Shown here piece by piece: positions 1,041 to 15,595 of a stretch of DNA of 64,000 nt. A model generated the notes under the pieces. That model saw only the letters and a list, made by a program, of their open reading frames with translations. It was not told where the DNA came from and did no database searches. The stretch lies in assembly GCF_003018235.1 (NCBI RefSeq), contig NZ_CP027437.1; one strand, written 5' to 3'. Origin of the DNA: Escherichia coli. Lineage in GTDB: Bacteria; Pseudomonadota; Gammaproteobacteria; Enterobacterales; Enterobacteriaceae. The position numbers were made by a program, and so were the translations under genes. Within the stretch, counting starts at the first letter, position 1. Every line of letters starts with the position of its first letter.

Positions 1041-1235
1041 TTACCTGTTTTGAAGAATCTCCCGCTTTCTTACAATACATTCCGTCGTTTCTCTATAGCT
1101 GCACACGTGCTCCCGTGAACATTGGTATGTGTGCAATTCGCCGATGGCATCACCGATACCAGTCAGCACATCTTTTTCATGCAGAATGGTCACCTGCAGA
1201 CGGTTGGTTGGGCAGATAATGTTTGAATAGTTCAT
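1041..1235 (-). CDS. hypothetical phage protein (64 aa)
   Basis: ATG at internal Met of track ORF 1041..1412, preceded by AAGGAG about 8 nt upstream; no recognisable family. Confidence 0.3.
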   Translation of the reverse strand: MNYSNIICPTNRLQVTILHEKDVLTGIGDAIGELHTYQCSREHVCSYRETTECIVRKREILQNR

Positions 1236-1605
1236 TTTGGTGTCTCCTTTGCTTTCGAGACACCAAAATCCCATCACGACACGTTTACCGCCACAAACAT
1301 TATTGCAGGCACCCATTGAATACCTGCGGGACTGATAAACACAGCCTCCTCCATACGTAGTGAAACCATTTTCATATCTCCAGTAATGAATTCTTTGAAG
1401 AGTCGCAATCAATACGACTCACTAATGGGGAGGCATGTCCAACGCGTTGGACGAGTTGCCTACTTGATTTAGATGACACTTTAGAAGGACAGAATGCCTT
1501 CCTCACTCAAATAACATCAATTAAGGAGGTTCAACATGCTTCGTTCCAAAAGTCAGTTGACTGTAATTATTACTACGTCACCTTATGCCGAAGACCTTTT
1601 CCGCT

Positions 1606-1881
1606 TCACTTTGAGCCTGATTCACTTCTACCTGACCGGCTCGCCTCTATCCTTCTGATCCCCGCTTTATCCAGATTGCACTGCCCTAGCGCCGACAACA
1701 GACTGACATTCAAATCTAGACTACCCGCATAAGTCAGCGGTTCAGAAATGGCTGGTTGCGGGGTTTCAGCGGTCAGACTCGCCGGTAACGGTATAGCCGG
1801 AACTGGCACGTAAACTGTCCGCGAACTTTCGCAACCGGTCAGCAGCGGCAGCAGGCACAGGGCGTACAGCACAATCATCAT
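1606..1881 (-). CDS. Rz1-like outer-membrane spanin lipoprotein (overlapping Rz in another frame)
   Basis: Internal start MMIVLYALCLLPLLTGC gives signal peptide plus lipobox LTGC, followed by a proline-rich segment; overlaps 3' end of the Rz-like gene out of frame. Confidence 0.55.
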   Translation of the reverse strand: MMIVLYALCLLPLLTGCESSRTVYVPVPAIPLPASLTAETPQPAISEPLTYAGSLDLNVSLLSALGQCNLDKAGIRRIEASRSGRSESGSK

Positions 1882-2158
1882 CCGCAACAGCCACTTTGAT
1901 ATCAGCCTGGGTTCTCTGTGACTCCAGTGCGATCTGCTGTTTTGCATGCTGGTTAGCCTCCAGAACTGTATTGACGATTTGCAGTGATTGCAGGACGTTA
2001 TTGGTAATAGCGGTTGCCGATTCGGCATTTTGTACAGCCTCATCAGCACGTTTCTTTTCGCGCTGGTATTTGCTGTGGTAGTGGTTAGCTGACCAGACGA
2101 GAGAACCGAATAAAGTCAGGAGGAAAGCAGAAATAACCAGCTTATAGCGAAGTTTCAT
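1766..2158 (-). CDS. Rz-like inner-membrane spanin
   Basis: N-terminal TM segment followed by predicted coiled coil, directly downstream of the endolysin; track ORF starts at TTG 2191, ATG at 2158 preferred. Confidence 0.6.
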   Translation of the reverse strand: MKLRYKLVISAFLLTLFGSLVWSANHYHSKYQREKKRADEAVQNAESATAITNNVLQSLQIVNTVLEANQHAKQQIALESQRTQADIKVAVADDDCAVRPVPAAAADRLRKFADSLRASSGYTVTGESDR

Positions 2159-2618
2159 TAACCACCCCGCCAGCTTCTTTGAATTTGGCAATCAGACTAT
2201 CGATCTTGTGTTCATACTGACCGTAGCCAGCACCGGGCAATGAGGCCCAAATATTGCTGCAACGATCAATAGCCTGACGAATATCACCCCGATCAATCAG
2301 CGGCAGCGCGCCGCGTTCTTTAATCTGCTGTAACGCCACCGCATCCTGGCTTTTCGGGGAGAAATCTTTCAGTCCAAGCTGTTTACGGTAGGCGTCCCAC
2401 CATTTCGACAGCAGTTGATAACGCCCGGCGGCGGTGGATTTCAGTTTCGGGTTAAGCGTAACCAGCTTACGTGGATGATCGGAGTAATCAGTAAGCAGTT
2501 CGCCACCAACGATAACGTCATAACCATGATTTCTGGTCTTCTGCCATCCGTTATCAGTTCCTTCTGACCACGCCAGCATATCGAGGAAGGCTTTACGCTG
2601 AGGATTAAGGTTTTGCAT
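2142..2618 (-). CDS. R: endolysin, lambda R-type lytic transglycosylase
   Basis: 158-aa product near-identical over most of its length to recalled lambda R (QRKAFLDMLAWSEGTDNG...GDIRQAIDRCSNIWASLPGAGYGQ). Confidence 0.9.
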   Translation of the reverse strand: MQNLNPQRKAFLDMLAWSEGTDNGWQKTRNHGYDVIVGGELLTDYSDHPRKLVTLNPKLKSTAAGRYQLLSKWWDAYRKQLGLKDFSPKSQDAVALQQIKERGALPLIDRGDIRQAIDRCSNIWASLPGAGYGQYEHKIDSLIAKFKEAGGVVNETSL

Positions 2619-2922
2619 TTTTCACCCCTGTCAGTCGTTCCCAGAAGTAAGTCAGCGCAACTGAACCCATTGCACCGCTGATCCCTGCTGTGGCGAGAAT
2701 CATGTAAATGCTAAATCCGCTTTCGATACTTATCAGGCCACCAATAACACCGGTAAAACCCGATACCACTATCTGAGCCAGAGCATTAATCCAGCTCCAT
2801 GTTGCTTTGCTCTGCTTCACATCAATCAGGTAACGGACAAGCCCGCCCCAGCACGCGAAGATCAGCAGAACGAGCCAGGACATCCCGGCAATGCTCTCTT
2901 TTTCGTGCATATGAATAGCCAT
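2605..2922 (-). CDS. holin (not lambda S family)
   Basis: About 105 aa with hydrophobic TM segments, dual-Met N-terminus MAIHMHEK, immediately upstream of and overlapping the endolysin gene. Confidence 0.55.
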   Translation of the reverse strand: MAIHMHEKESIAGMSWLVLLIFACWGGLVRYLIDVKQSKATWSWINALAQIVVSGFTGVIGGLISIESGFSIYMILATAGISGAMGSVALTYFWERLTGVKNAKP

Positions 2923-2951
2923 GATTTTGCCGCCGACGGATGATCGGGACT

Positions 2952-3449
2952 CTAAATGATAGGGAACAGACTCACGGGGTAATTTAACGACAAAGCACGG
3001 AGTTGAAGATCCCCACAAGCCTGGAATAAAAAAGCCAGCGACAGGCTGGCAATGTGAGGGTAACGCAAAGTGCTTAGAAACAAAAAAAGGCCGCCATCGG
3101 CGACCTTCGAGGTATCTAGCGTGCTGGATACTTTCAGCTTCGCCTTCAATTCAGCGTTGATTTCTTTCAGGCGATCAACATCGTTTTTAAGTTTTTCAAT
3201 GTCTTGCCCTTTATTATCAAGGTCGCGCTGAAGACCTTTAATAATTTCTGTTTGGGCCGCCTGTACTTCTCGTGTCGTCTGGAGAGACTTATCAATATCA
3301 TCAACTTGGTTAATCAAGCGTGTACCGAAAAAGCCTACAACTAACATAGTTATCCCAACCATAAAGTTGAGAACCCAGACTTTTGTTCCGGAAGCAGTGT
3401 TTGGAGTTTCGTCGATAAAGTGCACCTTATGCCAGTTAAAGTTACCCAA
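2952..3449 (-). CDS. hypothetical membrane/coiled-coil protein; 3' part of ORF probably non-coding
   Basis: TTG-initiated track ORF; internal ATG precedes a TM segment and coiled coil; C-terminal about 45 codons overlie two hairpin+T-tract terminators. Confidence 0.25.
   Translation of the reverse strand: MGNFNWHKVHFIDETPNTASGTKVWVLNFMVGITMLVVGFFGTRLINQVDDIDKSLQTTREVQAAQTEIIKGLQRDLDNKGQDIEKLKNDVDRLKEINAELKAKLKVSSTLDTSKVADGGLFLFLSTLRYPHIASLSLAFLFQACGDLQLRALSLNYPVSLFPII
3030..3107 (-). terminator. two tandem rho-independent terminators in the Q-to-holin interval (tR'-like)
   Basis: On minus strand: hairpin GCCAGCCTGTCGCTGGC followed by TTTTTTATT, and hairpin GGTCGCCGATGGCGGCC followed by TTTTTTTGTTT. 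Confidence 0.45.
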
Positions 3450-3908
3450 CGTCTGCGCAGATCGTTAGATTCGGCAACATTGTAACTGGATAAGGAATAG
3501 AAAACCTTGGAATTTTAAGAAGAAACTGATTGATCGATTATTTAACGAGCGAACACATCCATACACCCCAGACGGGTACTACGACAAAGGCCATGAAATA
3601 AGTAACTTTTGCTTGAATGTTTTGCATTTCGCTTCCTTAGCAGTCCGATAAGTACTGTCTGCTCATCCAACCTAACGAATGTAGATCAGAATGACAAGTC
3701 TTTCGCGCTAATTTCAATTTGATATCTGTTCGTAAACATGATGGCGCGAAATATTACGCATGAAGTGCTTCTACATCAACATAAAAGTTACTTTTTTTGT
3801 GTTCACAGCATGTAAAGTAAAAGCCCCGCACGATGGCGAGGCTGTTAATTCTTTGTCGACCAACAAAGCTATGGCGACGATATCAGATTTACATGAAATA
3901 TAAGCGTT

Positions 3909-5999: not shown

Positions 6000-6191
6000 G
6001 CTTCACCTCCGCAGAGATCAAACGCTGGATGCAAAATATCGCAGGTGCATTTCTGCATCTGTGAATGGAGAAGAGAGGTTGGATTGTATGTGCGCATAAA
6101 CGTCCCCGTTTAGCGCAGAAGTCACCGGAGGAGTTCAAACTCTGGTGACTTAATTATGGCAAGTTGATTGTTGAAAATCAATTTAGTGGAT

Positions 6192-6974
6192 TTAGGCGCA
6201 ATACAAAGGATCATTAGCAGCTCTAATACCGCCCTGAATCGCAAGCCCTGTATGGCAATTTGACATTGAGCATGATTGCCATCTGTGCAAGGGACCTCCA
6301 TTAATCGAAACTTCCAGCAGATCTTTATCTCCTTTCATCCTGACCCCTTCATACAACATATCAAGACGCTCAACAATCAATCCTGTTGGAGGTTCCATTT
6401 TTAGAACGAGGGCAAACTCTCCTGGCCCACGTCGTATTGTTATACGCGGGCCGGTACACTCCACATCCCAATTGTCTGATTTAGCTTTCCATTCATTTTC
6501 ATCTATCAGTAAAGTCTCCTTACCAATAGAATTACAGAAAATTCCTGATAAAAGCATCGGTCCATGTGGTATGGGTGAAGGTTTCACAGAAAGAATGGGT
6601 TGTTCGTTGACTACAATCAAATTTTGACAGTTATGAAACGTCACTCCTGCAAATTTTACTGTTATAGGCTCATTATGAAAATCAAACATTTCATTTGCAA
6701 AACCAGCCTGTAAGCACTTGGGATTTCTGTCAGCTATTTCCACTGTCTGTGCTGAAAGTCTACCACGAGCTCTTTTTTGATTGCATTGGGAGCAAAGAAG
6801 TGTCATTCCATTCGGATCATGTACTTTGGCATCAACGAAGTCAGGTTTAAAATGCTCATAATCATAAAATCCAAATCCACAAATTACACAGCCAAAGCCG
6901 CACCTTTGCCTTATCTGACGTTTTATTGTCTCAGGTATTCTTCTTGAGAGCCCGTGTTTATTAATATTGTCCAT
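6192..6974 (-). CDS. HNH-domain protein with uncharacterised C-terminal domain (prophage cargo)
   Basis: 260 aa; N-terminal CGFGCVICG...YEHFKP...NGMTLLCSQCNQK fits HNH nuclease motif; about 160-aa C-terminal region unrecognised; AT-rich codon usage. Confidence 0.5.
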   Translation of the reverse strand: MDNINKHGLSRRIPETIKRQIRQRCGFGCVICGFGFYDYEHFKPDFVDAKVHDPNGMTLLCSQCNQKRARGRLSAQTVEIADRNPKCLQAGFANEMFDFHNEPITVKFAGVTFHNCQNLIVVNEQPILSVKPSPIPHGPMLLSGIFCNSIGKETLLIDENEWKAKSDNWDVECTGPRITIRRGPGEFALVLKMEPPTGLIVERLDMLYEGVRMKGDKDLLEVSINGGPLHRWQSCSMSNCHTGLAIQGGIRAANDPLYCA

Positions 6975-7148
6975 ATGGTTAGTACGCTATAAGTTTGTTT
7001 CTATAATTTTACCACAATAGATAAGTTTGTATCAGAAATCGCTATATGGAGTGAGCGGAATATTTATATTATTCATGCAATTGCTCTCCCGTACGCAGCC
7101 CGCACTTCCGTCATCGCAGAATGACGGAAGCCTTACTAACTAGCGCCT

Positions 7149-7472
7149 TTATTGAAACAGATTCTGAGGTAAATGCGGCAATACTCGACTCCACTTATCA
7201 TCCTGCCACGGCTGAAGTTTTACATGTGCCGTTTCTCGGACGAGGATTGCTCGCGCTCTGTTGAGTATCTGGGGATATTCTTGCTCGATGGAAGTGAAGT
7301 GACCAGCTTCACCATGCTCCGCATCCTGAAGAAGATGAGTAACGTTCTGGTAGGCAATTAACATCACATTCCCTGCTCGCCATAACCAGGCGAGTGTGCA
7401 AAGTTCGTTATCAGTGAATTGTTTTGTGATTGGGGATTGTTGAACTGCTAGAACGAGAACGCCAGCATCCAT
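7149..7472 (-). CDS. hypothetical protein (uncertain coding status)
   Basis: 107-aa ORF between ybcK and the HNH gene; no recognisable motif; overlapped by a 62-aa plus-strand ORF. Confidence 0.2.
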   Translation of the reverse strand: MDAGVLVLAVQQSPITKQFTDNELCTLAWLWRAGNVMLIAYQNVTHLLQDAEHGEAGHFTSIEQEYPQILNRARAILVRETAHVKLQPWQDDKWSRVLPHLPQNLFQ

Positions 7473-7583
7473 TGGCAGTCCCTATAGTAAAACCATAGCT
7501 CAGGACGCTTCGTTCAGGATAGATAATTTTATTGTACTTACCTAACTTTCTTACTATAGCACGGTTGAAAAAGTGATTATTAC

Positions 7584-9110
7584 TCAAAAATAAACCTCAC
7601 CATCAACCATATATTTGAGAGTACTTATCGCCTGCCGGGCGGATATTGTTTTCATTAAAGGATAGTGTTTAAAAACAATGCCATTCATAAAATAGATATC
7701 ACAGGTTTTATTATCTGTATTGATTATGATTTTTTCGAATGTTTTATAGGCAAGTGTACGACATAGCTCTCGCCCATTTTTACTGGTTAAGTCAATAGCA
7801 TGAAAATCACCAAGTGAGCTCACCGCTTTACTCTTCAAAGTTTTTAATGATACAGAAGCCCTTCGTAATTCCTTATCTAATACTCTGATTTTTTCTGCTA
7901 TAGCGGTAACTTCAGGCGCAACAGATAATGCAGCAATTAAATTATTAATTTTCATATGGAGCTCAATAATTCTCAACTCTAAAGTTTCATTAGCATCTTT
8001 CTTGTTTTCAACTGGTTGGATTTTACTACAATTAAAAAGCAACTCATTAATGATATTATAATCAACCAAATCTCTCTTTATTGATGGCCTGCCACATCGA
8101 TGCAGTCTTCTCATCGGACAAACATAATAGCCATGCAAACTTCCAGATACCGCATGAACAATCATGGTATTACCACAAGCCTCGCACTTCATAACTGTTC
8201 GAAGTAGATTTATCAACATAGGATTTTTGCTACTATTGCTAATACCAAAAGGTGCCAACCGAATTTCCTGCACAGCGTAAAACAAATCATCTGATATGAC
8301 TCTGGGATAATAGCCAGCGATTTCACTTATTCCTTTACCTCTTGCACGATATGAAGGTACGCATATACCTATCAGAGCTTTATTCGCTAATAATTTTTCA
8401 ATTACAGAAGGCCCCCATGCACTTTCTTTTCCTGAGAAATTCTTTACAGCATGATCATTTAAATACTTGGCTATTGCATTCAATGAGCGCCTTTCCATCC
8501 TGAGTTTAAAAATTAGCTCAATAGTTTTCACCCTGTCGGGGTCTGGAACAAAAGCCGTTCTTTTGTCATCTAAGGAGAGCCATCTCGGACAAGACGCCGT
8601 CATAATCGTACCTGATTCCAGTGCATCCTGCCGTTTTTTCTTCCATGATAATTTAACCCGACTTGACTTTATCTCGCTTTCTTCATTTGCCCTTTGTGCT
8701 ATAAGTATGGCTTTTATTAATGAATATGGCTCATTCAAAGAGTCAATATTATAGACTGTATTGTCGCAAAGAGTTATAACATCAATACCGTGATTCAAAA
8801 TCAATTTCAGACGTTCAATCGCTTCACCGACTTTTTCTCTTGAAAGTCTGTCCAGACTTTCAACTAACAATGTAGTTCCTGGCAATATATAACCATGCTC
8901 TATAGCATCTAAAAATTCCGAAAAAGCTCCTGATTGTGCATGCTTTCCTTTGAATGCACTTAATCCTAAATCTTCATATGTTATGGTATCAAGATAATAA
9001 TCACTATTTACCTTTAACCATTCAGCAATAAGTCTTCTCTGTCGGTTTAATGAGTCGCCAGACATCTGACCTGGTGATGAAAATCGCATATATGCTATGG
9101 CTTTTTTCAT
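7584..9110 (-). CDS. ybcK: large serine recombinase YbcK
   Basis: 508 aa; N-terminal resolvase-type catalytic domain (YMRFSSPGQ...SLNRQ), recombinase domain and Cys-rich zinc ribbon; length and position match K-12 DLP12 ybcK. Confidence 0.85.
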   Translation of the reverse strand: MKKAIAYMRFSSPGQMSGDSLNRQRRLIAEWLKVNSDYYLDTITYEDLGLSAFKGKHAQSGAFSEFLDAIEHGYILPGTTLLVESLDRLSREKVGEAIERLKLILNHGIDVITLCDNTVYNIDSLNEPYSLIKAILIAQRANEESEIKSSRVKLSWKKKRQDALESGTIMTASCPRWLSLDDKRTAFVPDPDRVKTIELIFKLRMERRSLNAIAKYLNDHAVKNFSGKESAWGPSVIEKLLANKALIGICVPSYRARGKGISEIAGYYPRVISDDLFYAVQEIRLAPFGISNSSKNPMLINLLRTVMKCEACGNTMIVHAVSGSLHGYYVCPMRRLHRCGRPSIKRDLVDYNIINELLFNCSKIQPVENKKDANETLELRIIELHMKINNLIAALSVAPEVTAIAEKIRVLDKELRRASVSLKTLKSKAVSSLGDFHAIDLTSKNGRELCRTLAYKTFEKIIINTDNKTCDIYFMNGIVFKHYPLMKTISARQAISTLKYMVDGEVYF

Positions 9111-9364
9111 GGTGACACCTGCTAACGTATGCTTTTATAAACCTTAGTGGCGAGATATAATTTTTGTTTAATTTTTATTTAAAAAGACAATTAAGGTCAC
9201 ATTATCTTGAATATACAACAATAATCGTATTGCAATTTTCTTACGCCATAATCTTGAAAGCACAAAAGAATACATAAAAAATAAAGACATTAACAAAAAG
9301 CATAAAACGAGGCTCATATAAATATAAGAGCCTCCATATTTTAGTCGTTTAGAAACAAATTATT

Positions 9365-9697
9365 TTAATGTGGTGTGCTTCGTGACAATAAATTAATAAC
9401 CAACACACCGGCACAAATCAACATCATGCCTATAATGGCTGGCAGGTCCAGCCGTTGGCCGAAAAATCCCCATGACAGTAAGCTAATCAGGACAATACCG
9501 ACTCCTGACCAGATAGCATAAGCAATCCCTGTAGGAATATAAGCCAGCGTCTGAGCTAATAACCAGAATGATGCACAATAACAAATAATTGTACCAACAG
9601 ATGGCCATAACCGTGTAAAACCTTCTGAAAACTTCATTAAGGTTGTACCAATGACCTCTGCAAGTATTGCACCACCAAGATAAATATAAGGATTCAT
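9365..9697 (-). CDS. emrE: small multidrug resistance efflux transporter EmrE
   Basis: 110-aa product from internal ATG (MNPYIYLGGAILAEVIGTTLMKFSEGF...) matches recalled EmrE; four TM segments. Confidence 0.9.
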   Translation of the reverse strand: MNPYIYLGGAILAEVIGTTLMKFSEGFTRLWPSVGTIICYCASFWLLAQTLAYIPTGIAYAIWSGVGIVLISLLSWGFFGQRLDLPAIIGMMLICAGVLVINLLSRSTPH

Positions 9698-9764
9698 AGC
9701 ATATTCTTTCCTGTTCAAACTGGAGAGAATTGTACTACAGTTTGAACTCAACTCACCTGTTTCA

Positions 9765-10067
9765 TCATTGTGTACCCATTGATGTTCTTTTATATACCCT
9801 CAATACCCGTTTCATCGCGGCACTCTGGCGACACTCCTTAAAAATCAGATTCGTGCTCACCTTTCCTTCCCGTTCTTCTCTGGTAGCGAACCGGTAATAC
9901 ACCGTTCGCCAGACCTTACCATCAACGACCAGGATTCCTGCCCGCGCCATTTTAGCCGCAGCCTGATTTATGCTGGTTACGGTTGCGCCTGTTACCGCGG
10001 CAACGTCCTGTGCACAGAAGCTCTTATGCGTCCCCAGGTAATGAATAATTGCCTCTTTGCCCGTCAT
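9765..10067 (-). CDS. ren: Ren (Rex-exclusion relief protein)
   Basis: 100-aa product closely matches recalled lambda Ren (MTGKEAIIHYLGTH...FATREEREGK). Confidence 0.8.
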   Translation of the reverse strand: MTGKEAIIHYLGTHKSFCAQDVAAVTGATVTSINQAAAKMARAGILVVDGKVWRTVYYRFATREEREGKVSTNLIFKECRQSAAMKRVLRVYKRTSMGTQ

Positions 10068-10765: not shown

Positions 10766-11781
10766 AGATCCACCCCGTAAATCCAGTCTGTGTTTGTCAG
10801 GTCGAGTTTTGGTTTGCTAGCTGTCACGCCTGCCTGTTGCTTGTTACGGTTGATTTCGAGTTGGGTCCACTTGTCGCGGAGTTTGGCCGGACTTAGCACG
10901 TTACCGGACCAGAAGTTGTCCTGGCATGCCCAGCGGAACAGCACGCACATGTCGCGGTGGTTACGTCCGTCACGTTCACGCATCAGGCGGATATCGTTAG
11001 CCCACCCTGCAAAATTCGGTTTTCTGGCTGATGGCGCGATGGTCTTCACCATGTCAAACATCCACTCTGCGGCGGTCAGGTCTTCTGCTGTCCCCCACTT
11101 GCTGCCGCTCTGAATTGCAGCATCCGGTTTCACCACAGGAAGATCGTTTTCTGGTTGGTCAGAGGATTCGCCAGAATTCTCGGACGAAAAAGGTTTTATA
11201 TTGTCTTTTGTTAGTTTGTCTTTTGTGTTTACCTGATTCGGGTAAACGCCTTTACCTGATTTGGGTAAACTTTTTTTACCTGATTCAGGTAAATTTACCT
11301 CTTTCAGGTAAACTTTATTTTTCTTACCTGATTCGGGTAATGTTGACCATTCACTGACCACATTATTAATGCCGGTATTCCGCCCGCTCTGAATAAAAAT
11401 CCCACGCTTTACCAGAACACTTTTTGCAGCAGAACACTTGTGCGGCAATATCCCGGTTAATTCGGAAAGTTGCTCGTTGCTAACCCAATCCAGTTTTTTA
11501 TTAAAGCCATATGTTTTGCGCATGACAGCCAGAAAGACCAGAAGCTGGTGCTGTGTTAATCCGGCCAGCATCACAGCTTCCAGCAACTCATTTGCAATGC
11601 GCGTATAACCATCATCGAGATCTGCCACGCGCGGCTCCTTTTGTGCCGCATCCGGCACTGGAAAATTGAATATCTCAGCAGTGTTTGCCATAATTCCTCC
11701 CGCAATGAGTGTGTTACGATTTGCACCTGAAAGTCGGTTCTGTTCCAGCAGACCGGCTTTCGCCATTTCTGAACCTGTCAT
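10762..11781 (-). CDS. O: replication initiator O-like protein (iteron-binding)
   Basis: 339-aa ORF upstream of P containing an internal array of 17-bp iterons; N-terminal region resembles lambda O (ADLDDGY...); C-terminal acidic linker. Confidence 0.8.
   Translation of the reverse strand: MTGSEMAKAGLLEQNRLSGANRNTLIAGGIMANTAEIFNFPVPDAAQKEPRVADLDDGYTRIANELLEAVMLAGLTQHQLLVFLAVMRKTYGFNKKLDWVSNEQLSELTGILPHKCSAAKSVLVKRGIFIQSGRNTGINNVVSEWSTLPESGKKNKVYLKEVNLPESGKKSLPKSGKGVYPNQVNTKDKLTKDNIKPFSSENSGESSDQPENDLPVVKPDAAIQSGSKWGTAEDLTAAEWMFDMVKTIAPSARKPNFAGWANDIRLMRERDGRNHRDMCVLFRWACQDNFWSGNVLSPAKLRDKWTQLEINRNKQQAGVTASKPKLDLTNTDWIYGVDL
11180..11340. repeat. phage replication origin: five 17-bp iterons (TTACC-N7-GGTAA) plus adjacent AT-rich tract, inside O
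   Basis: Repeats TTACCTGATTCGGGTAA (x2), TTACCTGATTTGGGTAA, TTACCTGATTCAGGTAA, TTACCTCTTTCAGGTAA at roughly 18-29 bp spacing; AT-rich block on the O-downstream side. Confidence 0.75.
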
Positions 11782-12317
11782 ATTGCCCCCAGCATGGTGG
11801 TGACCATTGCCATCAGTGGACCAGCCAGATCCGGGTCCACTCGAAACATCGACACAATGCCTTCACTCATCTCCTTCAGTTTCTGGTGGCGTGGTGCGTT
11901 GAGAATGACCGCCTGCTTTGCCTCACTGAGTTCCTTTTCCATTTCAGCCAGCCGAGCCATGAAGCTATCCTGCTCAACTAGGTAACCGCGATATTCCAGC
12001 GGTAGTACCGCCAGAATTGCCGGGGTCAGTTCACGCACGTTATTTCTGTATTTTTCAGAATCGAATTTGTTATCGAGGAAGCGGAACAGCTTCTGGCGTG
12101 CACGGCTGACATCATCAGGGAAATCGATGGTGCCGCCGCCCTGCTCCCGATACTCATTCACAATGAGTGCGGCAACGACATCCTGATTATCTACAGCCGA
12201 CCAGGCGCGGACGGCATCACGGATTTTTTCGTGGCCTGGAGCTTGTTTTGTTTGAGAACGATTTATCACCGCAGTCGGGCTAAATCCGCTAGTCTGTTGG
12301 TATGTAAGTGGTTGCAT
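11778..12317 (-). CDS. cII-position regulatory protein (possibly YdaT-like)
   Basis: 179-aa ORF between cro-like gene and O, ATGA overlap with O start; family not recognised with confidence. Confidence 0.35.
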   Translation of the reverse strand: MQPLTYQQTSGFSPTAVINRSQTKQAPGHEKIRDAVRAWSAVDNQDVVAALIVNEYREQGGGTIDFPDDVSRARQKLFRFLDNKFDSEKYRNNVRELTPAILAVLPLEYRGYLVEQDSFMARLAEMEKELSEAKQAVILNAPRHQKLKEMSEGIVSMFRVDPDLAGPLMAMVTTMLGAI

Positions 12318-12386: not shown

Positions 12387-12617
12387 TTAAGCTGCGTTCT
12401 TTTCAGTGTGTGGAAACAACTTCGGAAGATCCGGGCGAATCTGGTATGCCTTCACTACTCCACCAGTAGCCGTAACAATGCTGCCGACATGTTCAGGGGA
12501 TACCTTTGCTTTGTTGTGAAGCCACTTATAGACGGCCTGCTGTGAAACTTCGCAGGCAGCGCCTAGTTTCTTTTGTGAACCAACGATATTGATCGCTGTT
12601 TTGATGGCTGGGTTCAT
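12387..12617 (-). CDS. cro: Cro-like HTH regulator
   Basis: 76-aa protein with HTH (LGAACEVSQQAVYKWL), divergent from cI, GGAGG 5 nt upstream of ATG. Confidence 0.6.
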   Translation of the reverse strand: MNPAIKTAINIVGSQKKLGAACEVSQQAVYKWLHNKAKVSPEHVGSIVTATGGVVKAYQIRPDLPKLFPHTEKNAA

Positions 12618-12721
12618 AACAACCTCCGTGGTTAATTTGAATCAAGATTAAAACCATGGTTGTTTTTAGTCAACAACCATTTTCGTTTGATGAAATAAAA
12701 CCTTGGTTGTACATTTGGACT
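12618..12721. promoter_or_regulatory. OR-like operator/promoter region between cro and cI
   Basis: Three palindromic sites built on AACCA/TGGTT half-sites (AACCATGGTT; ACAACCATT; AACCTTGGTTGT) in a 100-bp divergent intergenic region. Confidence 0.45.
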
Positions 12722-13411
12722 ATGAAAACAACACTCTCAGAAAGACTTAAAGAAGCCAGATTAGCGCGAGGCCTTACACAAAAGGCGCTTGGGGATTTGG
12801 TCGGGGTTAGCCAAGCAGCTATTCAGAAAATCGAAACAGGGAAAGCTAACCAAACAACTAAAATCGTGGAGATCGCGAACGCTTTGGGTGTGCGCGCAGA
12901 ATGGTTATCTTCTGGCGTTGGAAATATGTCAGACAGTACAGTGCAACCAATACAAACAACTGTCAGCCATTCCAAATACTTTAAGATTGACGTTCTTGAT
13001 ATCGAAGTGAGTGCCGGGCCGGGAGTCATCAACCGTGAGTTTGTAGAAGTTCTACGCTCGGTTGAGTACTCGTTTGACGATGCTCGTCACATGTTCGATG
13101 GTAGGAAGGCAGAAAATATCCGCATCATTAACGTACGCGGTGACAGCATGTCAGGAACGATTGAACCTGGTGATCTTCTATTCGTTGATATCACGGTTAA
13201 ATCTTTCGACGGTGATGGTATCTATGCGTTTCTGTACGACGACACAGCCCATGTAAAGCGCCTGCAAATGATGAAGGATAAGCTGCTGGTTATCTCTGAT
13301 AACAAAAGCTACTCACCGTGGGACCCGATCGAGAAAGATGAGATGAACCGGGTATTTATCTTCGGGAAAGTTATTGGGAGCATGCCGCAGACGTATAGGA
13401 AGCATGGATAG
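12722..13411 (+). CDS. cI: CI-type prophage repressor (HTH plus S24 LexA-like peptidase domain)
   Basis: N-terminal HTH (LTQKALGDLVGVSQAAIQKIE), Ala-Gly cleavage site, GDSM serine motif and downstream Lys; ATG with almost no leader. Confidence 0.8.
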   Translation: MKTTLSERLKEARLARGLTQKALGDLVGVSQAAIQKIETGKANQTTKIVEIANALGVRAEWLSSGVGNMSDSTVQPIQTTVSHSKYFKIDVLDIEVSAGPGVINREFVEVLRSVEYSFDDARHMFDGRKAENIRIINVRGDSMSGTIEPGDLLFVDITVKSFDGDGIYAFLYDDTAHVKRLQMMKDKLLVISDNKSYSPWDPIEKDEMNRVFIFGKVIGSMPQTYRKHG

Positions 13412-13491
13412 TACCAATTAAAAATTATCAACCGGGCATTGTGCTCATTCAGTAAAACAACTTAATTATTCATTTTAGAATGGAGAACTTA

Positions 13492-14553
13492 ATGGATACT
13501 TTAAAATATGAGAAATTCTCTGATTTTGATCACAATGACCCATTTTTTGACTCTTTAAAAAAAGATTATAAAGAGTTTCCTCTTTGGTTAGAAAAAAAAG
13601 CCAGAGAAGGAGAATCAGCTTATGTGCTCTATGATGACAAGCATAAAATCGAAGGTTTTATGTATCTAAAAGAAAATGATGATGCAAATGACATTAATCC
13701 AGCGCTCCCACCAGGACGTCATCTAAAGATAGGAACATTCAAATTTGAATCTAAAGGCACCCTTCGCGGACAACGATTTCTAAAAAAAGCGTTTGACCAT
13801 GCATTTTCATCAAAATCTGATGATATTTATGTTACTGTTTTCGACAAACACGTCCATCTAATAAAACTTTTCCAAACGTACGGATTTTACATTCATGGTG
13901 AAAAAGAAACACATAACGGGAAAGAGTTTGTATATGCGAGGTCTTTGCATGAGCCTTATGGTGATATTTTATTAGATTACCCTCGAATAATGACATCAAG
14001 GGCCAACAAATATTTACTGGCGATTTATCCCGAATATCACACTAGACTATTCCCTGATTCAAAACTTGTAAATGAATCACCAGATATTGTCAAAGATATA
14101 TCCCATGCTAACAGCATTCATAAAATTTACATATGTGGAATGCGTTCTGTGATGGGAATGAAAAGAGGAGATATCATTGTCATCTATAGAACCGGAGACA
14201 AAAAAGGGCCAGCTCGCTATCGTTCTGTAGCCAGTACATTATGTGTAGTTGAGAGCGTAAAAAATATTTCTGAATTTTTAAGCGAAGATAGTTTTGTAGA
14301 CTATTGTATTCGTTTTAGCGTATTTTCTGAAGATGAACTCAGAAAAATCTATAAAGAACGTCGATACCCTTTCATTATAAGATTCACATACAATCTGTCT
14401 TTGCCAAAGAGACCCAATCGTGCTATTTTAATAGATCATGTGGGGCTAAATGGTTCGCGTGCATTCCGATGGAGTCACTTTAAACTCACAAATGAGCAGT
14501 TCTTAAAGATCATCGAGTTAGGCAAGATAAATGAAAGTTTTATTATCCATTAA
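13492..14553 (+). CDS. hypothetical protein, first gene of rexAB-position operon
   Basis: 353 aa from ATG with GGAG 6 nt upstream (track ORF starts 13480); AT-rich; no family recognised; C-terminal half has PUA-like-looking motifs (GDIIVIY). Confidence 0.4.
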   Translation: MDTLKYEKFSDFDHNDPFFDSLKKDYKEFPLWLEKKAREGESAYVLYDDKHKIEGFMYLKENDDANDINPALPPGRHLKIGTFKFESKGTLRGQRFLKKAFDHAFSSKSDDIYVTVFDKHVHLIKLFQTYGFYIHGEKETHNGKEFVYARSLHEPYGDILLDYPRIMTSRANKYLLAIYPEYHTRLFPDSKLVNESPDIVKDISHANSIHKIYICGMRSVMGMKRGDIIVIYRTGDKKGPARYRSVASTLCVVESVKNISEFLSEDSFVDYCIRFSVFSEDELRKIYKERRYPFIIRFTYNLSLPKRPNRAILIDHVGLNGSRAFRWSHFKLTNEQFLKIIELGKINESFIIH

Positions 14554-14908
14554 GCCTGAGTTTGCAGAAAAAATATTGAACGGAACAAAGCGGTTCGAGT
14601 TTCGTAAAGGTATATTCAAAAATCCGCAAATTAGCACCGTTGTTATTTATGCCACGATGCCATTAGGTAAAGTTGTTGGTCAATTCCGTATTGAATCAAT
14701 ACTAAGTGACGAACCGGAATCTCTTTGGAAAAAGACGGAAAAACACGCAGGTATTTCTAAGCAATTTTATGACTCATATTATTCAGGTAGAGAAAAGGCC
14801 TACGCAATAAAAATTGGTGAAGTGGAAAGATATAAAGAACCAATTCCTATCTCTGCTCTAGGTAGTAATATTAAGCCACCACAATCATATCTTTACCTAC
14901 CTGCGTAA
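14531..14908 (+). CDS. ASCH/PUA-like domain protein
   Basis: 125 aa; MKVLLSIKPEFAEKILNGTKRFEFRK N-terminus resembles ASCH-domain consensus; overlaps upstream gene by 23 nt (translational coupling). Confidence 0.5.
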   Translation: MKVLLSIKPEFAEKILNGTKRFEFRKGIFKNPQISTVVIYATMPLGKVVGQFRIESILSDEPESLWKKTEKHAGISKQFYDSYYSGREKAYAIKIGEVERYKEPIPISALGSNIKPPQSYLYLPA

Positions 14909-14912
14909 GAAT

Positions 14913-14939
14913 CCCGGCCACCGTGCCGGGTTTTCTTTT
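14913..14939 (+). terminator. rho-independent terminator ending the cI operon
   Basis: Hairpin CCCGGCCACCGTGCCGGG followed by TTTTCTTTT, 5 nt after the ASCH gene stop. Confidence 0.7.
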
Positions 14940-15049
14940 ATCCCCTCCCCTCATCACATATACCGTTCAAAAAACCACCACAATCTCCCTTCAGTTATCG
15001 CTATGCGATGCAAGTCACAAAATAAACCCATCCTAAATACAACCAGTTA

Positions 15050-15112
15050 CATCTAAAACAACCAATAAAACAACTTTTGTTGTTGACGATAAAACAACTA
15101 TAGTTTTAAATA
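15050..15112 (+). promoter_or_regulatory. pL/OL-like promoter with operator repeats
   Basis: TTGACG-N17-TTAAAT overlapped by ACAACCA and AACAACTTTTGTTGTT palindromes sharing half-sites with the OR region. Confidence 0.45.
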
Positions 15113-15184: not shown

Positions 15185-15595
15185 TTGAATTTCAGCAGGC
15201 TCCGGGGAGTGCGAGGGGTGAAGCGGACGCGTGAACGTCGGTGTGACCAGCTGAAATCAACTCAACACTTCATACCTCAGTCGCTTCAACGAGGCGGCTT
15301 AGTTATGACAACCGGCGGCCATCCACCGCCTGAATACGCGCAGAAGTCTCCATATGTTCAGCAGCCCAGCTTACGGGCAGGAGTTTTTATGGTTCATCAA
15401 CATTATGGAACGCAGACCGTTAATCGAGGTGCGGTCATGCCAGGAATGCTGGTCAAACACAAAGATGGTACCTGGACTGCATCAGCTAATTTACGCGGAC
15501 GGCTTTATCTGCATCGCGGCATCGAGCGCACTTATACCCGTGATTTGCTCGTGGAAGTTTTTCTCGACGGACGCGGTAACGGCCTGAATCACTAA
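15185..15595 (+). CDS. hypothetical early-left protein (Arg-rich N-terminus; true start uncertain)
   Basis: 136-aa ORF between pL-like promoter and gam; Arg-rich N-terminus reminiscent of N-type ARM but no boxA/boxB nut site found. Confidence 0.25.

What the first reader, a model, noticed from the sequence alone, without database searches (positions are those of the whole stretch)
13480..14940. AT-rich two-gene operon (353-aa protein plus ASCH/PUA-like protein) in the rexAB position of the immunity region
Directly downstream of cI, before a strong terminator and the pL/OL region, sit two translationally coupled genes with strikingly low GC content. This is the slot lambda uses for rexA-rexB and that lambdoid prophages commonly use for lysogen-expressed superinfection-exclusion or defence cargo. 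The second protein has an ASCH-like (PUA-fold) signature, a fold that binds modified or unusual nucleic acids; the first has no recognisable family. This is a plausible uncharacterised prophage-encoded anti-phage module.
Basis: partly seen in the sequence, partly recalled or inferred. Interest (0 to 1): 0.8.

Follow-up and report, generated by a model that had tools for sequence, protein, structure and literature searches.

The report
Prophage GNAT-EVE toxin plus ASCH antitoxin
The two AT-rich genes after the prophage repressor are an exact copy of an already catalogued pair (GevT/GevA, PADLOC candidate PDC-M11): an acetyltransferase fused to a nucleic-acid reader domain, followed by an ASCH protein, predicted to be a toxin-antitoxin or anti-phage module that no paper I could find has tested.

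Summary
Two overlapping + strand genes (13492-14553, 353 aa; 14531-14908, 125 aa; 23-nt overlap; GC 35% against about 49% in the flanks) lie between cI and a strong terminator that precedes OL/pL. This is the slot lambda uses for rexAB.

Protein 1 does have a recognisable family. It is an N-terminal GNAT acetyltransferase fused to a C-terminal PUA-superfamily (ASCH/EVE-like) domain. Protein 2 is a GKER-type ASCH protein homologous to Zymomonas ZmASCH.

The pair matches PADLOC candidate system PDC-M11 (E 2e-133 and 7e-52). It is the "GNAT-EVE + ASCH" operon predicted to be a toxin-antitoxin system by Iyer 2013 and Bell 2020. An identical copy is annotated "GevT toxin / GevA antitoxin" in GenBank PV340567.1.

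The pairing is conserved across phyla: 118 distinct pairs overlap by 23 or 29 nt. The pair often sits directly downstream of prophage repressors. Four loci carry a disrupted gevT next to an intact gevA, and none show the reverse, which fits a toxin/antitoxin asymmetry.

Anti-phage protection and the biochemical target remain untested in the literature I could search. The most interesting open reading is an acetyl writer/eraser pair acting on nucleic acid.

Verdict: a real feature that is already catalogued, with moderate interest.

The parts
12387..12617 (-). cro-like regulator, divergent from cI
   Evidence: ORF; annotated Cro in PV340567.1.
12619..12710 (.). OR region: three operator-like palindromes (ACAAC-N4-GTTGT type) between cro and cI. 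The promoter for cI and the cargo (a pRM equivalent) is presumed to lie here.
   Evidence: The promoter assignment is an inference from lambda.
12722..13411 (+). cI repressor (HTH + S24 peptidase, 229 aa)
   Evidence: ORF; annotated cI; 'S24 family peptidase' in RefSeq.
13412..13491 (+). 80-nt cI-gevT spacer with no predicted terminator. The Shine-Dalgarno sequence GGAGA lies at 13482-13486.
13492..14553 (+). gevT (PDC-M11A), 353 aa: a GNAT-PUA/EVE fusion and the predicted toxin
   Evidence: PADLOC PDLC04419, E 2e-133. phrog_6345, E 1e-186. Named 'N-acetyltransferase' by NCBI. Annotated GevT toxin. AlphaFold model with pLDDT 86.9.
13492..13956 (+). GNAT acetyltransferase domain of GevT (residues about 1-155)
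   Evidence: Foldseek against PDB: PaiA 1tiq 3e-7, Naa50, SpeG and others, probability 1.00. Family profile against PDB sequences: PaiA, E 2.7e-4. phrog_13728 acetyltransferase, residues 8-151.
13969..14550 (+). PUA-superfamily (ASCH/EVE-like) beta-barrel domain of GevT (residues about 160-353)
14531..14553 (+). 23-nt out-of-frame overlap of the gevT 3' end and the gevA 5' end (translational coupling)
   Evidence: The overlap is 23 nt in 99 and 29 nt in 19 of 118 distinct pairs across phyla.
14531..14908 (+). gevA (PDC-M11B), 125 aa: a stand-alone ASCH protein of the GKER type and the predicted antitoxin
   Evidence: PADLOC PDLC04425, E 7e-52. Pfam ASCH, E 3e-8. ZmASCH 5GUQ/5GUS, E 8e-16. K20, E23, R25, Y40, Q118 and S119 are invariant and G18 is nearly invariant. 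Annotated GevA antitoxin.
14913..14939 (+). Intrinsic terminator (CCCGGC-loop-GCCGGG followed by a T-run) that ends the cI-gevT-gevA unit
   Evidence: It is retained in the deletion variant PhiR34_1.
15070..15107 (.). OL operators, with a pL-like TTGACG at 15083-15088
   Evidence: The promoter assignment is an inference.

Best explanation
The locus is the two-gene GevT/GevA module, also known as the 'GNAT-EVE + ASCH' operon and as PADLOC candidate PDC-M11. It is carried as accessory cargo in the rexAB slot of a lambdoid E. coli prophage.

Shown here: GevT is a GNAT acetyltransferase fused to a PUA-superfamily reader domain. GevA is a GKER-type ASCH protein. The genes overlap by a conserved 23 nt. 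No terminator separates them from cI, and a strong terminator follows them.

Inferred: in the lysogen the pair is co-transcribed with cI from the maintenance promoter and is translated in a coupled way. GevT uses its PUA domain to dock on a nucleic-acid substrate, most likely tRNA or another RNA. It then transfers an acetyl group from acetyl-CoA to an amine. The acceptor would be either the alpha-amine of an aminoacyl-tRNA, as in the known GNAT toxins, or an exocyclic base amine such as N4 of cytidine. This would be toxic.

GevA keeps the toxin harmless either by removing the mark (ASCH proteins have been reported to deacetylate ac4C in tRNA) or by binding GevT or its substrate. When a superinfecting phage disturbs this balance, GevT activity arrests the cell and aborts the infection.
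For: Identity. PADLOC hits only the PDC-M11A/B families. An identical pair is annotated GevT toxin/GevA antitoxin in PV340567.1. Bell et al. 2020 (PMC7641849) describe GNAT-EVE fusions that are nearly always next to an ASCH gene, are common in prophages of beta- and gamma-proteobacteria, and are predicted to be toxin-antitoxin systems.

Folds. The GNAT fold is supported. The PUA/ASCH/EVE fold of the C-terminal half is supported. GevA is homologous to ZmASCH and conserves that protein's nucleic-acid-binding residues (Y47 corresponds to Y40, R32 to R25, Q127/S128 to Q118/S119).

Pairing. In the viral loci (L002-L081), every locus with enough downstream sequence has B directly after A. In the genome loci (80 different species, many phyla), 75 of 79 evaluable loci have B overlapping the end of A on the same strand, and the other four have an ASCH homologue elsewhere in the locus. 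Among 118 distinct pairs the overlap is 23 or 29 nt. Divergence of A and B from the window proteins is correlated (Spearman 0.83).

Lysogenic-operon context. The pair lies directly downstream of HTH or S24 repressors in lambdoid, P2/186-like and Pasteurellaceae prophages.

Toxin/antitoxin asymmetry. gevT is broken while gevA is intact in L020, L051 and L069 and by an IS5-family insertion in E. coli MSI001. No reverse case was seen.

Eraser idea. GevA carries the GxKxxExR motif. K20, E23 and R25 are invariant and G18 is nearly invariant. A 2026 preprint reports that ASCH proteins of the GKER type remove ac4C from tRNA and need the Lys and Glu of this motif.
Against: No experiment was available. 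I found no paper showing toxicity, neutralisation, acetylation or phage protection. The toxin/antitoxin labels rest on one GenBank annotation. PDC-M11 is a candidate system, not a validated one.

GevT shows no specific similarity to the known GNAT toxins TacT and AtaT. The position of the canonical GNAT general-acid Tyr aligns with a Phe or Leu in this family (alignment; inference), so its chemistry may be atypical.

ZmASCH was reported not to hydrolyse the free ac4C nucleoside (cited), and its published activity is a weak ssRNA nuclease activity. The Pfam EVE model does not match significantly.

Co-transcription with cI is inferred from layout only. A close relative, PhiR34_1, has deleted the module and is still a viable phage, so the module is dispensable for the phage itself.
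Confidence: 0.6

Rival explanations
1. The pair is a conventional type II toxin-antitoxin system. GevA binds and blocks GevT stoichiometrically and has no catalytic role. Its main job is to stabilise the prophage or mobile element by post-segregational killing, not to defend against phages.
For: The tight, conserved gene overlap and the co-divergence of the two genes suit a stoichiometric complex. The module occurs on many kinds of mobile element: prophages, filamentous-phage-like loci, and a Legionella locus that appears to be a conjugative element, a reading made only by eye from ORF N-termini and not run against any library. The hhalign result suggests that GevA and the GevT C-terminal domain are related folds that could pair with each other or compete (probability only 33%).
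Against: The gene order is toxin first and antitoxin second, and the antitoxin is a conserved globular domain with invariant catalytic-type residues. This is unlike the typical labile DNA-binding type II antitoxins. The module is enriched enough in defence contexts to have been made a PADLOC candidate. Whole-module deletions occur naturally, as expected for any toxin-antitoxin system, so they do not decide the question.
Confidence: 0.22
2. The pair is a nucleic-acid modification system rather than a toxin. GevT would acetylate a (modified) base in DNA, as Iyer et al. 2013 proposed. The purpose would be to mark or protect prophage or host DNA, or to neutralise hypermodified invading DNA. GevA would read, regulate or edit the mark.
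For: The closest structural relatives of the C-terminal domain include readers of modified DNA bases: THYN1 with 5mC DNA, the EVE domain of VcaM4I, and the McrB N-terminal domain. Bell et al. note fusions of ASCH to HsdS and to HTH domains, which suggests DNA binding. In one locus (L121) ORFs that look like type I restriction-modification genes flank the pair (read by eye from motifs, not searched).
Against: Repeated inactivation of gevT with gevA kept intact fits a harmful enzyme better than a protective one. The best match of both PUA-type domains is ZmASCH, which is RNA-active. The GenBank depositors call the first protein a toxin.
Confidence: 0.1
3. The pair is ordinary metabolic cargo: a small-molecule acetyltransferase (polyamine, antibiotic or amino-acid acetylation) that merely lies next to an unrelated ASCH gene.
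For: The best GNAT matches are PaiA and SpeG polyamine acetyltransferases and N-terminal acetyltransferases.
Against: Those matches are weak and generic for the fold. The fusion to a nucleic-acid reader domain is obligatory, and the linkage and overlap with ASCH are almost invariant across phyla. Neither feature is expected for a small-molecule enzyme.
Confidence: 0.03

Closest known systems
(PIN)-GNAT-EVE + ASCH operons (Iyer et al. 2013; Bell, Koonin et al. 2020, PMC7641849), equal to PADLOC PDC-M11 and to GevT/GevA of GenBank PV340567.1
   Same: The domain architecture, gene order, ASCH partner and prophage location in gamma-proteobacteria are the same. The PADLOC HMMs match at E 2e-133 and 7e-52, and the GenBank copy is identical in protein sequence.
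   Different: Nothing substantive differs. This copy is the short two-gene form, without the N-terminal PIN domain or the P-loop NTPase (AAA_17-like) third gene seen in some relatives. At the fold level the C-terminal domain scores slightly closer to ZmASCH than to canonical EVE proteins.
Lambda rexA-rexB
   Same: Same genomic slot (downstream of cI, same strand, before a terminator and OL/pL) and the same presumed expression logic as lysogen-expressed accessory cargo.
   Different: There is no homology. At E up to 1 the PADLOC search returned only PDC-M11 families. I did not check that the library holds RexA/RexB models, and I ran no transmembrane prediction. RexB is a membrane ion channel (from established knowledge), whereas GevA has a globular ASCH fold homologous to the crystallised protein ZmASCH.
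GNAT toxins of type II toxin-antitoxin systems (TacT, AtaT, ItaT, KacT)
   Same: GNAT fold; predicted toxicity through acetylation linked to translation.
   Different: No specific sequence or profile similarity, and none appear among the top 50 fold matches. GevT is twice as long and carries a PUA domain. The partner is an ASCH protein encoded downstream, not an RHH/DUF1778 antitoxin encoded upstream.
ZmASCH and other GKER-type ASCH proteins; YqfB ac4C amidohydrolase
   Same: GevA is homologous to ZmASCH (E 8e-16). It shares the GxKxxExR motif and the Tyr/Gln-Ser nucleic-acid-binding residues. ASCH proteins have been reported to erase ac4C from tRNA.
   Different: GevA lacks the Thr of the YqfB-type GK[T/S]R motif. 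No activity has been measured for GevA. The published activity of ZmASCH is a weak ssRNA nuclease activity.
DarT-DarG (an analogy for how it may work, not a membership claim)
   Same: A toxin that writes a covalent mark on nucleic acid, paired with an antitoxin that could enzymatically erase it. DarTG is used as an abortive-infection defence.
   Different: The chemistry differs (ADP-ribosylation of DNA against presumed acetylation) and the proteins are unrelated. The eraser role of GevA is a hypothesis.

Membership tests
GNAT-EVE + ASCH operon / PDC-M11 / GevTA | First protein has an N-terminal GNAT acetyltransferase domain | tested here: met
   Foldseek against PDB: top 50 shown all GNATs, probability 1.00. 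Family profile against PaiA: E 2.7e-4. phrog_13728 acetyltransferase.
GNAT-EVE + ASCH operon / PDC-M11 / GevTA | C-terminal domain is an EVE (PUA-superfamily) domain | tested here: met
GNAT-EVE + ASCH operon / PDC-M11 / GevTA | Adjacent gene encodes an ASCH protein | tested here: met
   Pfam ASCH, E 3e-8. ZmASCH, E 8e-16. The partner is present in essentially all evaluable related loci.
GNAT-EVE + ASCH operon / PDC-M11 / GevTA | Both proteins match the PADLOC PDC-M11A and PDC-M11B models | tested here: met
   E 2.1e-133 and 6.8e-52, with near full-length coverage.
GNAT-EVE + ASCH operon / PDC-M11 / GevTA | First protein is toxic and the second neutralises it | not testable with these tools
   Indirect evidence only. 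gevT is disrupted with gevA intact in L020, L051, L069 and E. coli MSI001, with no reverse cases. There is also the GenBank annotation.
GNAT-EVE + ASCH operon / PDC-M11 / GevTA | Protects against phage infection | not testable with these tools
   It has only PADLOC candidate status. No experimental report was found.
Type II GNAT toxins (TacT/AtaT/ItaT/KacT) | Homology to the TacT/AtaT GNAT clade, with an upstream RHH/DUF1778 antitoxin | tested here: not met
   These toxins are not among the PDB sequence or profile hits or the top 50 fold hits. The partner is a downstream ASCH protein.
Type II GNAT toxins (TacT/AtaT/ItaT/KacT) | Acetylates the alpha-amine of aminoacyl-tRNA | not testable with these tools
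   A biochemical assay is needed.
Lambda RexAB | Located between cI and the terminator/OL-pL, on the same strand as cI | tested here: met
Lambda RexAB | Homology to RexA/RexB, with RexB a polytopic membrane protein | tested here: not met
   At E up to 1 the PADLOC search returned only PDC-M11 families; whether the library holds Rex models was not checked. GevA is a globular ASCH-fold protein homologous to crystallised ZmASCH. No transmembrane prediction was run.
YqfB-type ac4C amidohydrolases | GK[T/S]R octapeptide (Thr24-type) in an ASCH protein of about 100 aa | tested here: not met
   GevA has G18-x-K20-x-x-E23-x-R25, the GKER type, with K20, E23 and R25 invariant and G18 nearly invariant in 27 homologues. 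The motif classes are as described in the paper read.
GKER-type ASCH proteins (ZmASCH-like) | GxKxxExR motif and homology to ZmASCH | tested here: met
   Residue mapping follows PMC5615036.

The most novel reading that the evidence does not exclude
GevT and GevA form a writer/eraser toxin-antitoxin pair for nucleic-acid acetylation. The GNAT-PUA toxin would install an N-acetyl mark (for example ac4C or an acetylated modified base) on tRNA, other RNA or DNA. The GKER-type ASCH antitoxin would remove it enzymatically. This would be an acetylation counterpart of DarTG, used by prophages as abortive-infection immunity. It would also give the widespread bacterial ASCH proteins a physiological role.
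Probability: 0.25. Interest if true: 0.8.

Novelty: already known. Interest (0 to 1): 0.4.

Why it matters
If GevTA is a lysogen-expressed abortive-infection module, it adds a new enzymatic logic (acetylation of a nucleic-acid-linked amine, possibly reversed by an ASCH hydrolase) to prophage-encoded immunity. It is carried by at least 274 of 5,426 complete E. coli genomes (those holding at least 80% of the cI-gevTA query), including O157:H7 lineages. It would also connect the recently reported ac4C-eraser activity of ASCH proteins to a natural antagonist enzyme. For the genome scan itself, the lesson is that this locus is already catalogued and named. The remaining value is mechanistic, not discovery of a new system.

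Tried and rejected
- Pfam on the full-length first protein returned nothing, even at E 10. Fold prediction was needed to see the domains.
- A sequence profile of the C-terminal domain found nothing in the PDB. Pfam EVE was only marginal.
- The 55-sequence alignment A2 was too diverse for the search for related loci, so A1 was used instead.
- Searches for 'GevT', 'GNAT-EVE', 'PDC-M11', and ASCH/GNAT/EVE with phage found no experimental study. The source of the GenBank naming could not be traced: the PhiR phages are used in a Laub-laboratory preprint that does not mention the module. The text of Iyer 2013 was not held.
- I considered and rejected GevA as a YqfB-type amidohydrolase because of the motif difference.
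- I considered and rejected membership of GevT in the TacT/AtaT clade.
- Promoter-like hexamers inside the 3' end of gevT, upstream of gevA (14401-14429 and 14519-14546), recall lambda pLIT. However, promoter-like sites in the region are not above chance (6 found against 7.9 expected), so no internal promoter is claimed.
- The sequence-based survey for repressors near the pair in the 80 species genomes was crude. It found a same-strand upstream repressor in 14 of 80 loci, which is a lower bound.
Full report
**1. The observation**

On the + strand there are two ORFs, 13480..14553 and 14531..14908. The first ATG at 13480 is probably not the start. GGAGA at 13482-13486 sits five bases ahead of the ATG at 13492. 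Starting there gives the 353-aa protein that the database clusters and PGAP also report. The genes overlap by 23 nt in different frames. GC of the pair is 0.352, against 0.487 and 0.495 in the flanking prophage DNA.

Upstream on the same strand is an HTH + S24 repressor, cI, at 12722-13411. A divergent cro follows at 12387-12617, then cII, O and P. The scan finds no terminator between cI and the pair. A six-GC-pair hairpin with a T-run lies at 14913-14939, immediately after the second stop codon. Operator-like palindromes of the ACAAC-N4-GTTGT type occur three times between cro and cI and twice at 15070-15107. These are 5 of 7 matches in the window, against 2.3 expected. That places OL/pL just beyond the terminator, and gam, bet and exo follow. 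The anatomy is that of lambda's cI-rexA-rexB-terminator-OL/pL.

**2. What the proteins are**

PADLOC-DB matches it end to end as PDC-M11A (E 2e-133) and matches protein 2 as PDC-M11B (E 7e-52). No other defence family matches at E up to 1. PHROGs places them in phrog_6345 and phrog_3136, both of unknown function, and the N-terminal 150 residues also match an acetyltransferase phrog. NCBI names the homologues 'N-acetyltransferase'.

An AlphaFold model built on 27 homologues is confident (pLDDT 86.9, pTM 0.84). Its first 155 or so residues are a GNAT fold: Foldseek against the PDB gives PaiA, Naa50, SpeG and others at probability 1.00. A family profile finds PaiA at E 2.7e-4 across the acetyl-CoA-binding motifs.

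Protein 2 is an ASCH protein (Pfam E 3e-8) homologous to ZmASCH (E 8e-16). In 27 diverse homologues K20, E23 and R25 of the motif G18-x-K20-x-x-E23-x-R25 are invariant and G18 is nearly invariant. Y40, Q118 and S119 are also invariant. These include the residues shown to bind nucleic acid in ZmASCH, and they form the 'GKER' octapeptide of the ASCH superfamily. A profile-profile comparison weakly links the C-terminal domain of the toxin to protein 2 (probability 33%, E 4e-4). The two may therefore be distantly related copies of one fold.

**3. Prior knowledge**

Bell, Koonin and colleagues (PMC7641849) describe exactly this architecture, following Iyer et al. 2013. They report a GNAT-EVE fusion, sometimes with an N-terminal PIN domain, almost always encoded next to an ASCH protein and often with an AAA_17 ATPase. 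[quoted passage not shown] They predict a toxin-antitoxin system and state that none of the modules had been characterised experimentally.

Eight phage records carry the module at 99.9-100% identity. In one of them, Escherichia phage PhiR47_2 (PV340567.1), the genes are annotated 'GevT toxin' and 'GevA antitoxin'. The protein sequences are identical to those in the window. Among complete E. coli genomes, 274 of 5,426 carry at least 80% of the cI-gevTA stretch, including O157:H7 strains EC4115 and TW14359.

I found no paper in the searchable library that reports toxicity, a substrate or phage protection. One preprint lists PDC-M11 only as a predicted system in an O157:H7 strain.

**4. Comparative evidence**

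Eighty viral contigs and 80 species-representative genomes encoding relatives of protein 1 were fetched. The genomes span Gamma-, Beta- and Alphaproteobacteria, Bacteroidota, Firmicutes, Verrucomicrobia, Campylobacterota and others.

- Every viral locus with enough downstream sequence has the ASCH gene immediately after the GNAT-PUA gene.
- Of 79 evaluable genome loci, 75 have the ASCH gene overlapping the end of the GNAT-PUA gene on the same strand. The four exceptions still have an ASCH homologue in the locus: inverted directly downstream in L093, 882 nt downstream in L143, and a longer (263-aa) ASCH homologue on the other strand in two Rhizobiaceae loci.
- Among 118 distinct adjacent pairs the overlap is 23 nt in 99 and 29 nt in 19. 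This conservation is striking for sequences only about 45% identical. It argues for obligatory translational coupling and a fixed stoichiometry.
- Divergence of the two proteins from the window copies is correlated (Spearman 0.83, n = 119), so they evolve as a unit.

The context also recurs. In lambdoid prophages the pair follows an S24-type or small HTH repressor opposite a cro-like gene. In P2/186-like prophages the order is repressor, one unknown gene, gevT, gevA, integrase. In Pasteurellaceae prophages the pair follows a cI-like repressor. In Vibrio it lies beside Zot-like genes of filamentous phages. Identical gevTA copies sit next to two different cI alleles, so the cassette moves between immunity types. 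A crude sequence screen finds a same-strand upstream repressor in 14 of the 80 species genomes. Other loci show ORFs that, read by eye from their N-termini, look like integrase, terminase, conjugation or type I restriction-modification genes.

**5. Evidence on the toxin/antitoxin reading**

Three loci carry a broken gevT next to an intact gevA. L020 has a premature stop near codon 297, L051 a frameshift, and L069 a stop at codon 34. In E. coli MSI001 an IS5-family element splits gevT and leaves gevA intact. No locus shows the reverse. This asymmetry is what is expected if protein 1 is harmful and protein 2 protective, although four cases are few.

Phage PhiR34_1 has the same cI and flanks. Its homology breaks at window 13456 and resumes at 14833, leaving the last 76 nt of gevA and the terminator. 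This is a deletion of a formerly present module, so the phage itself does not need the pair.

**6. Mechanism**

The domain composition and the operon layout are shown. The rest is inferred.

The PUA-type domain most plausibly targets the GNAT domain to a nucleic acid. The closest structural relatives of that domain bind RNA or modified bases in DNA. Conserved lysines on GNAT strand beta-4 (K79, K84), Y113 and T115 on beta-5, and E145 line the region where GNATs bind the acceptor. That assignment is an inference from the GNAT literature.

Two acceptor chemistries are plausible. One is the alpha-amine of aminoacyl-tRNA, as in TacT and AtaT. The other is an exocyclic base amine such as N4 of cytidine. 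GevT is not a member of the TacT/AtaT clade.

GevA carries the catalytic-type GKER motif. A 2026 preprint reports that ASCH proteins of this type lower ac4C in tRNA and need the Lys and Glu of the motif. A writer/eraser arrangement analogous to DarTG is therefore attractive, and I give it about 25%. A conventional sequestering antitoxin is the main rival. A DNA-modification role (Iyer 2013, as summarised) is less likely given the repeated loss of gevT. Defence against superinfecting phages is supported by the slot, the presumed lysogenic co-expression and the PADLOC candidate status, but it has not been demonstrated.

**7. Verdict**

The feature is real and correctly located. However, the locus is an exact member of a family that was described, catalogued and even named before, so the finding is 'already known'. 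Interest is moderate (0.4). No open experimental characterisation was found, and the possible acetyl writer/eraser mechanism would be notable if confirmed.

Noticed in passing
window 13456/14833; L162 (PV340559.1, phage PhiR34_1) 9300-9420: A close relative with the same cI and flanks lacks gevTA. Homology breaks at window 13456 and resumes at 14833, so the relative keeps the last 76 nt of gevA plus the terminator. This is a deletion scar, which shows that the module was lost rather than never present.
   Followed up: yes
L020 5001-6062; L051 4990-6064; L069 4990-6074; L163 (E. coli MSI001) 1193-3454: gevT is inactivated (premature stop, frameshift, early stop, IS5/ISKpn26 insertion) while the downstream gevA stays intact. 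No locus shows the opposite pattern.
   Followed up: yes
L081 6438-6953; L098 7431-7946; L145 7434-7961; L147 5433-5978: A P-loop NTPase of about 171-181 aa lies directly next to the pair in some distant relatives. It is probably the AAA_17 ATPase mentioned by Bell et al., and three of the four give only weak PADLOC 'VakA' hits (L145 none). The window copy lacks this third gene.
   Followed up: partly
L053 3835-4974; L056 4217-4999; L052 3628-4923; L069 3881-4969: In P2/186-like prophages, and in L052 (which has a cI/S24-like repressor), one further gene (260 aa, or 362-431 aa) sits between the repressor and gevT. PHROG hits are absent or of unknown function, and there are essentially no PADLOC hits. 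It may be additional cargo in the same lysogenic operon.
   Followed up: partly
window 14401-14429 and 14519-14546 (+ strand): Sigma-70-like hexamers lie inside the 3' end of gevT, upstream of gevA, and recall lambda's pLIT promoter ahead of rexB. Promoter-like sites in the region are not more frequent than chance, so this is only a lead.
   Followed up: no
window 6000-10000: A second low-GC stretch (0.37-0.41) lies to the right of the replication genes. In related phage records this region carries ren, a small multidrug-resistance (SMR) transporter gene, a YbcK-like recombinase-family gene and small unknown ORFs. It is another accessory-gene region of the prophage.
   Followed up: no
window 15185-15595 and 11778-12317: The first gene after OL/pL is annotated 'Kil' or 'phage encoded cell division inhibitor', and no N-like antiterminator gene is annotated there. 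The gene in the cII position is called 'cII' in the phage record but 'toxin YdaT domain-containing protein' by PGAP. The prophage end (integrase) appears to lie near window 20100, judged from the extent of phage matches, with non-phage sequence beyond it.
   Followed up: no
L093 7059-7457 (- strand); L143 7948-8322; L151 708-1499 and L160 3752-4543 (- strand): These are rare departures from the overlapping arrangement. In a Photobacterium locus the ASCH gene is inverted directly after gevT. In Psychromonas it lies 882 nt downstream. In two Rhizobiaceae loci a 263-aa ASCH homologue sits on the other strand, possibly the HTH-ASCH fusion that Bell et al. describe in alpha-proteobacteria; its domain composition was not checked here.
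   Followed up: no
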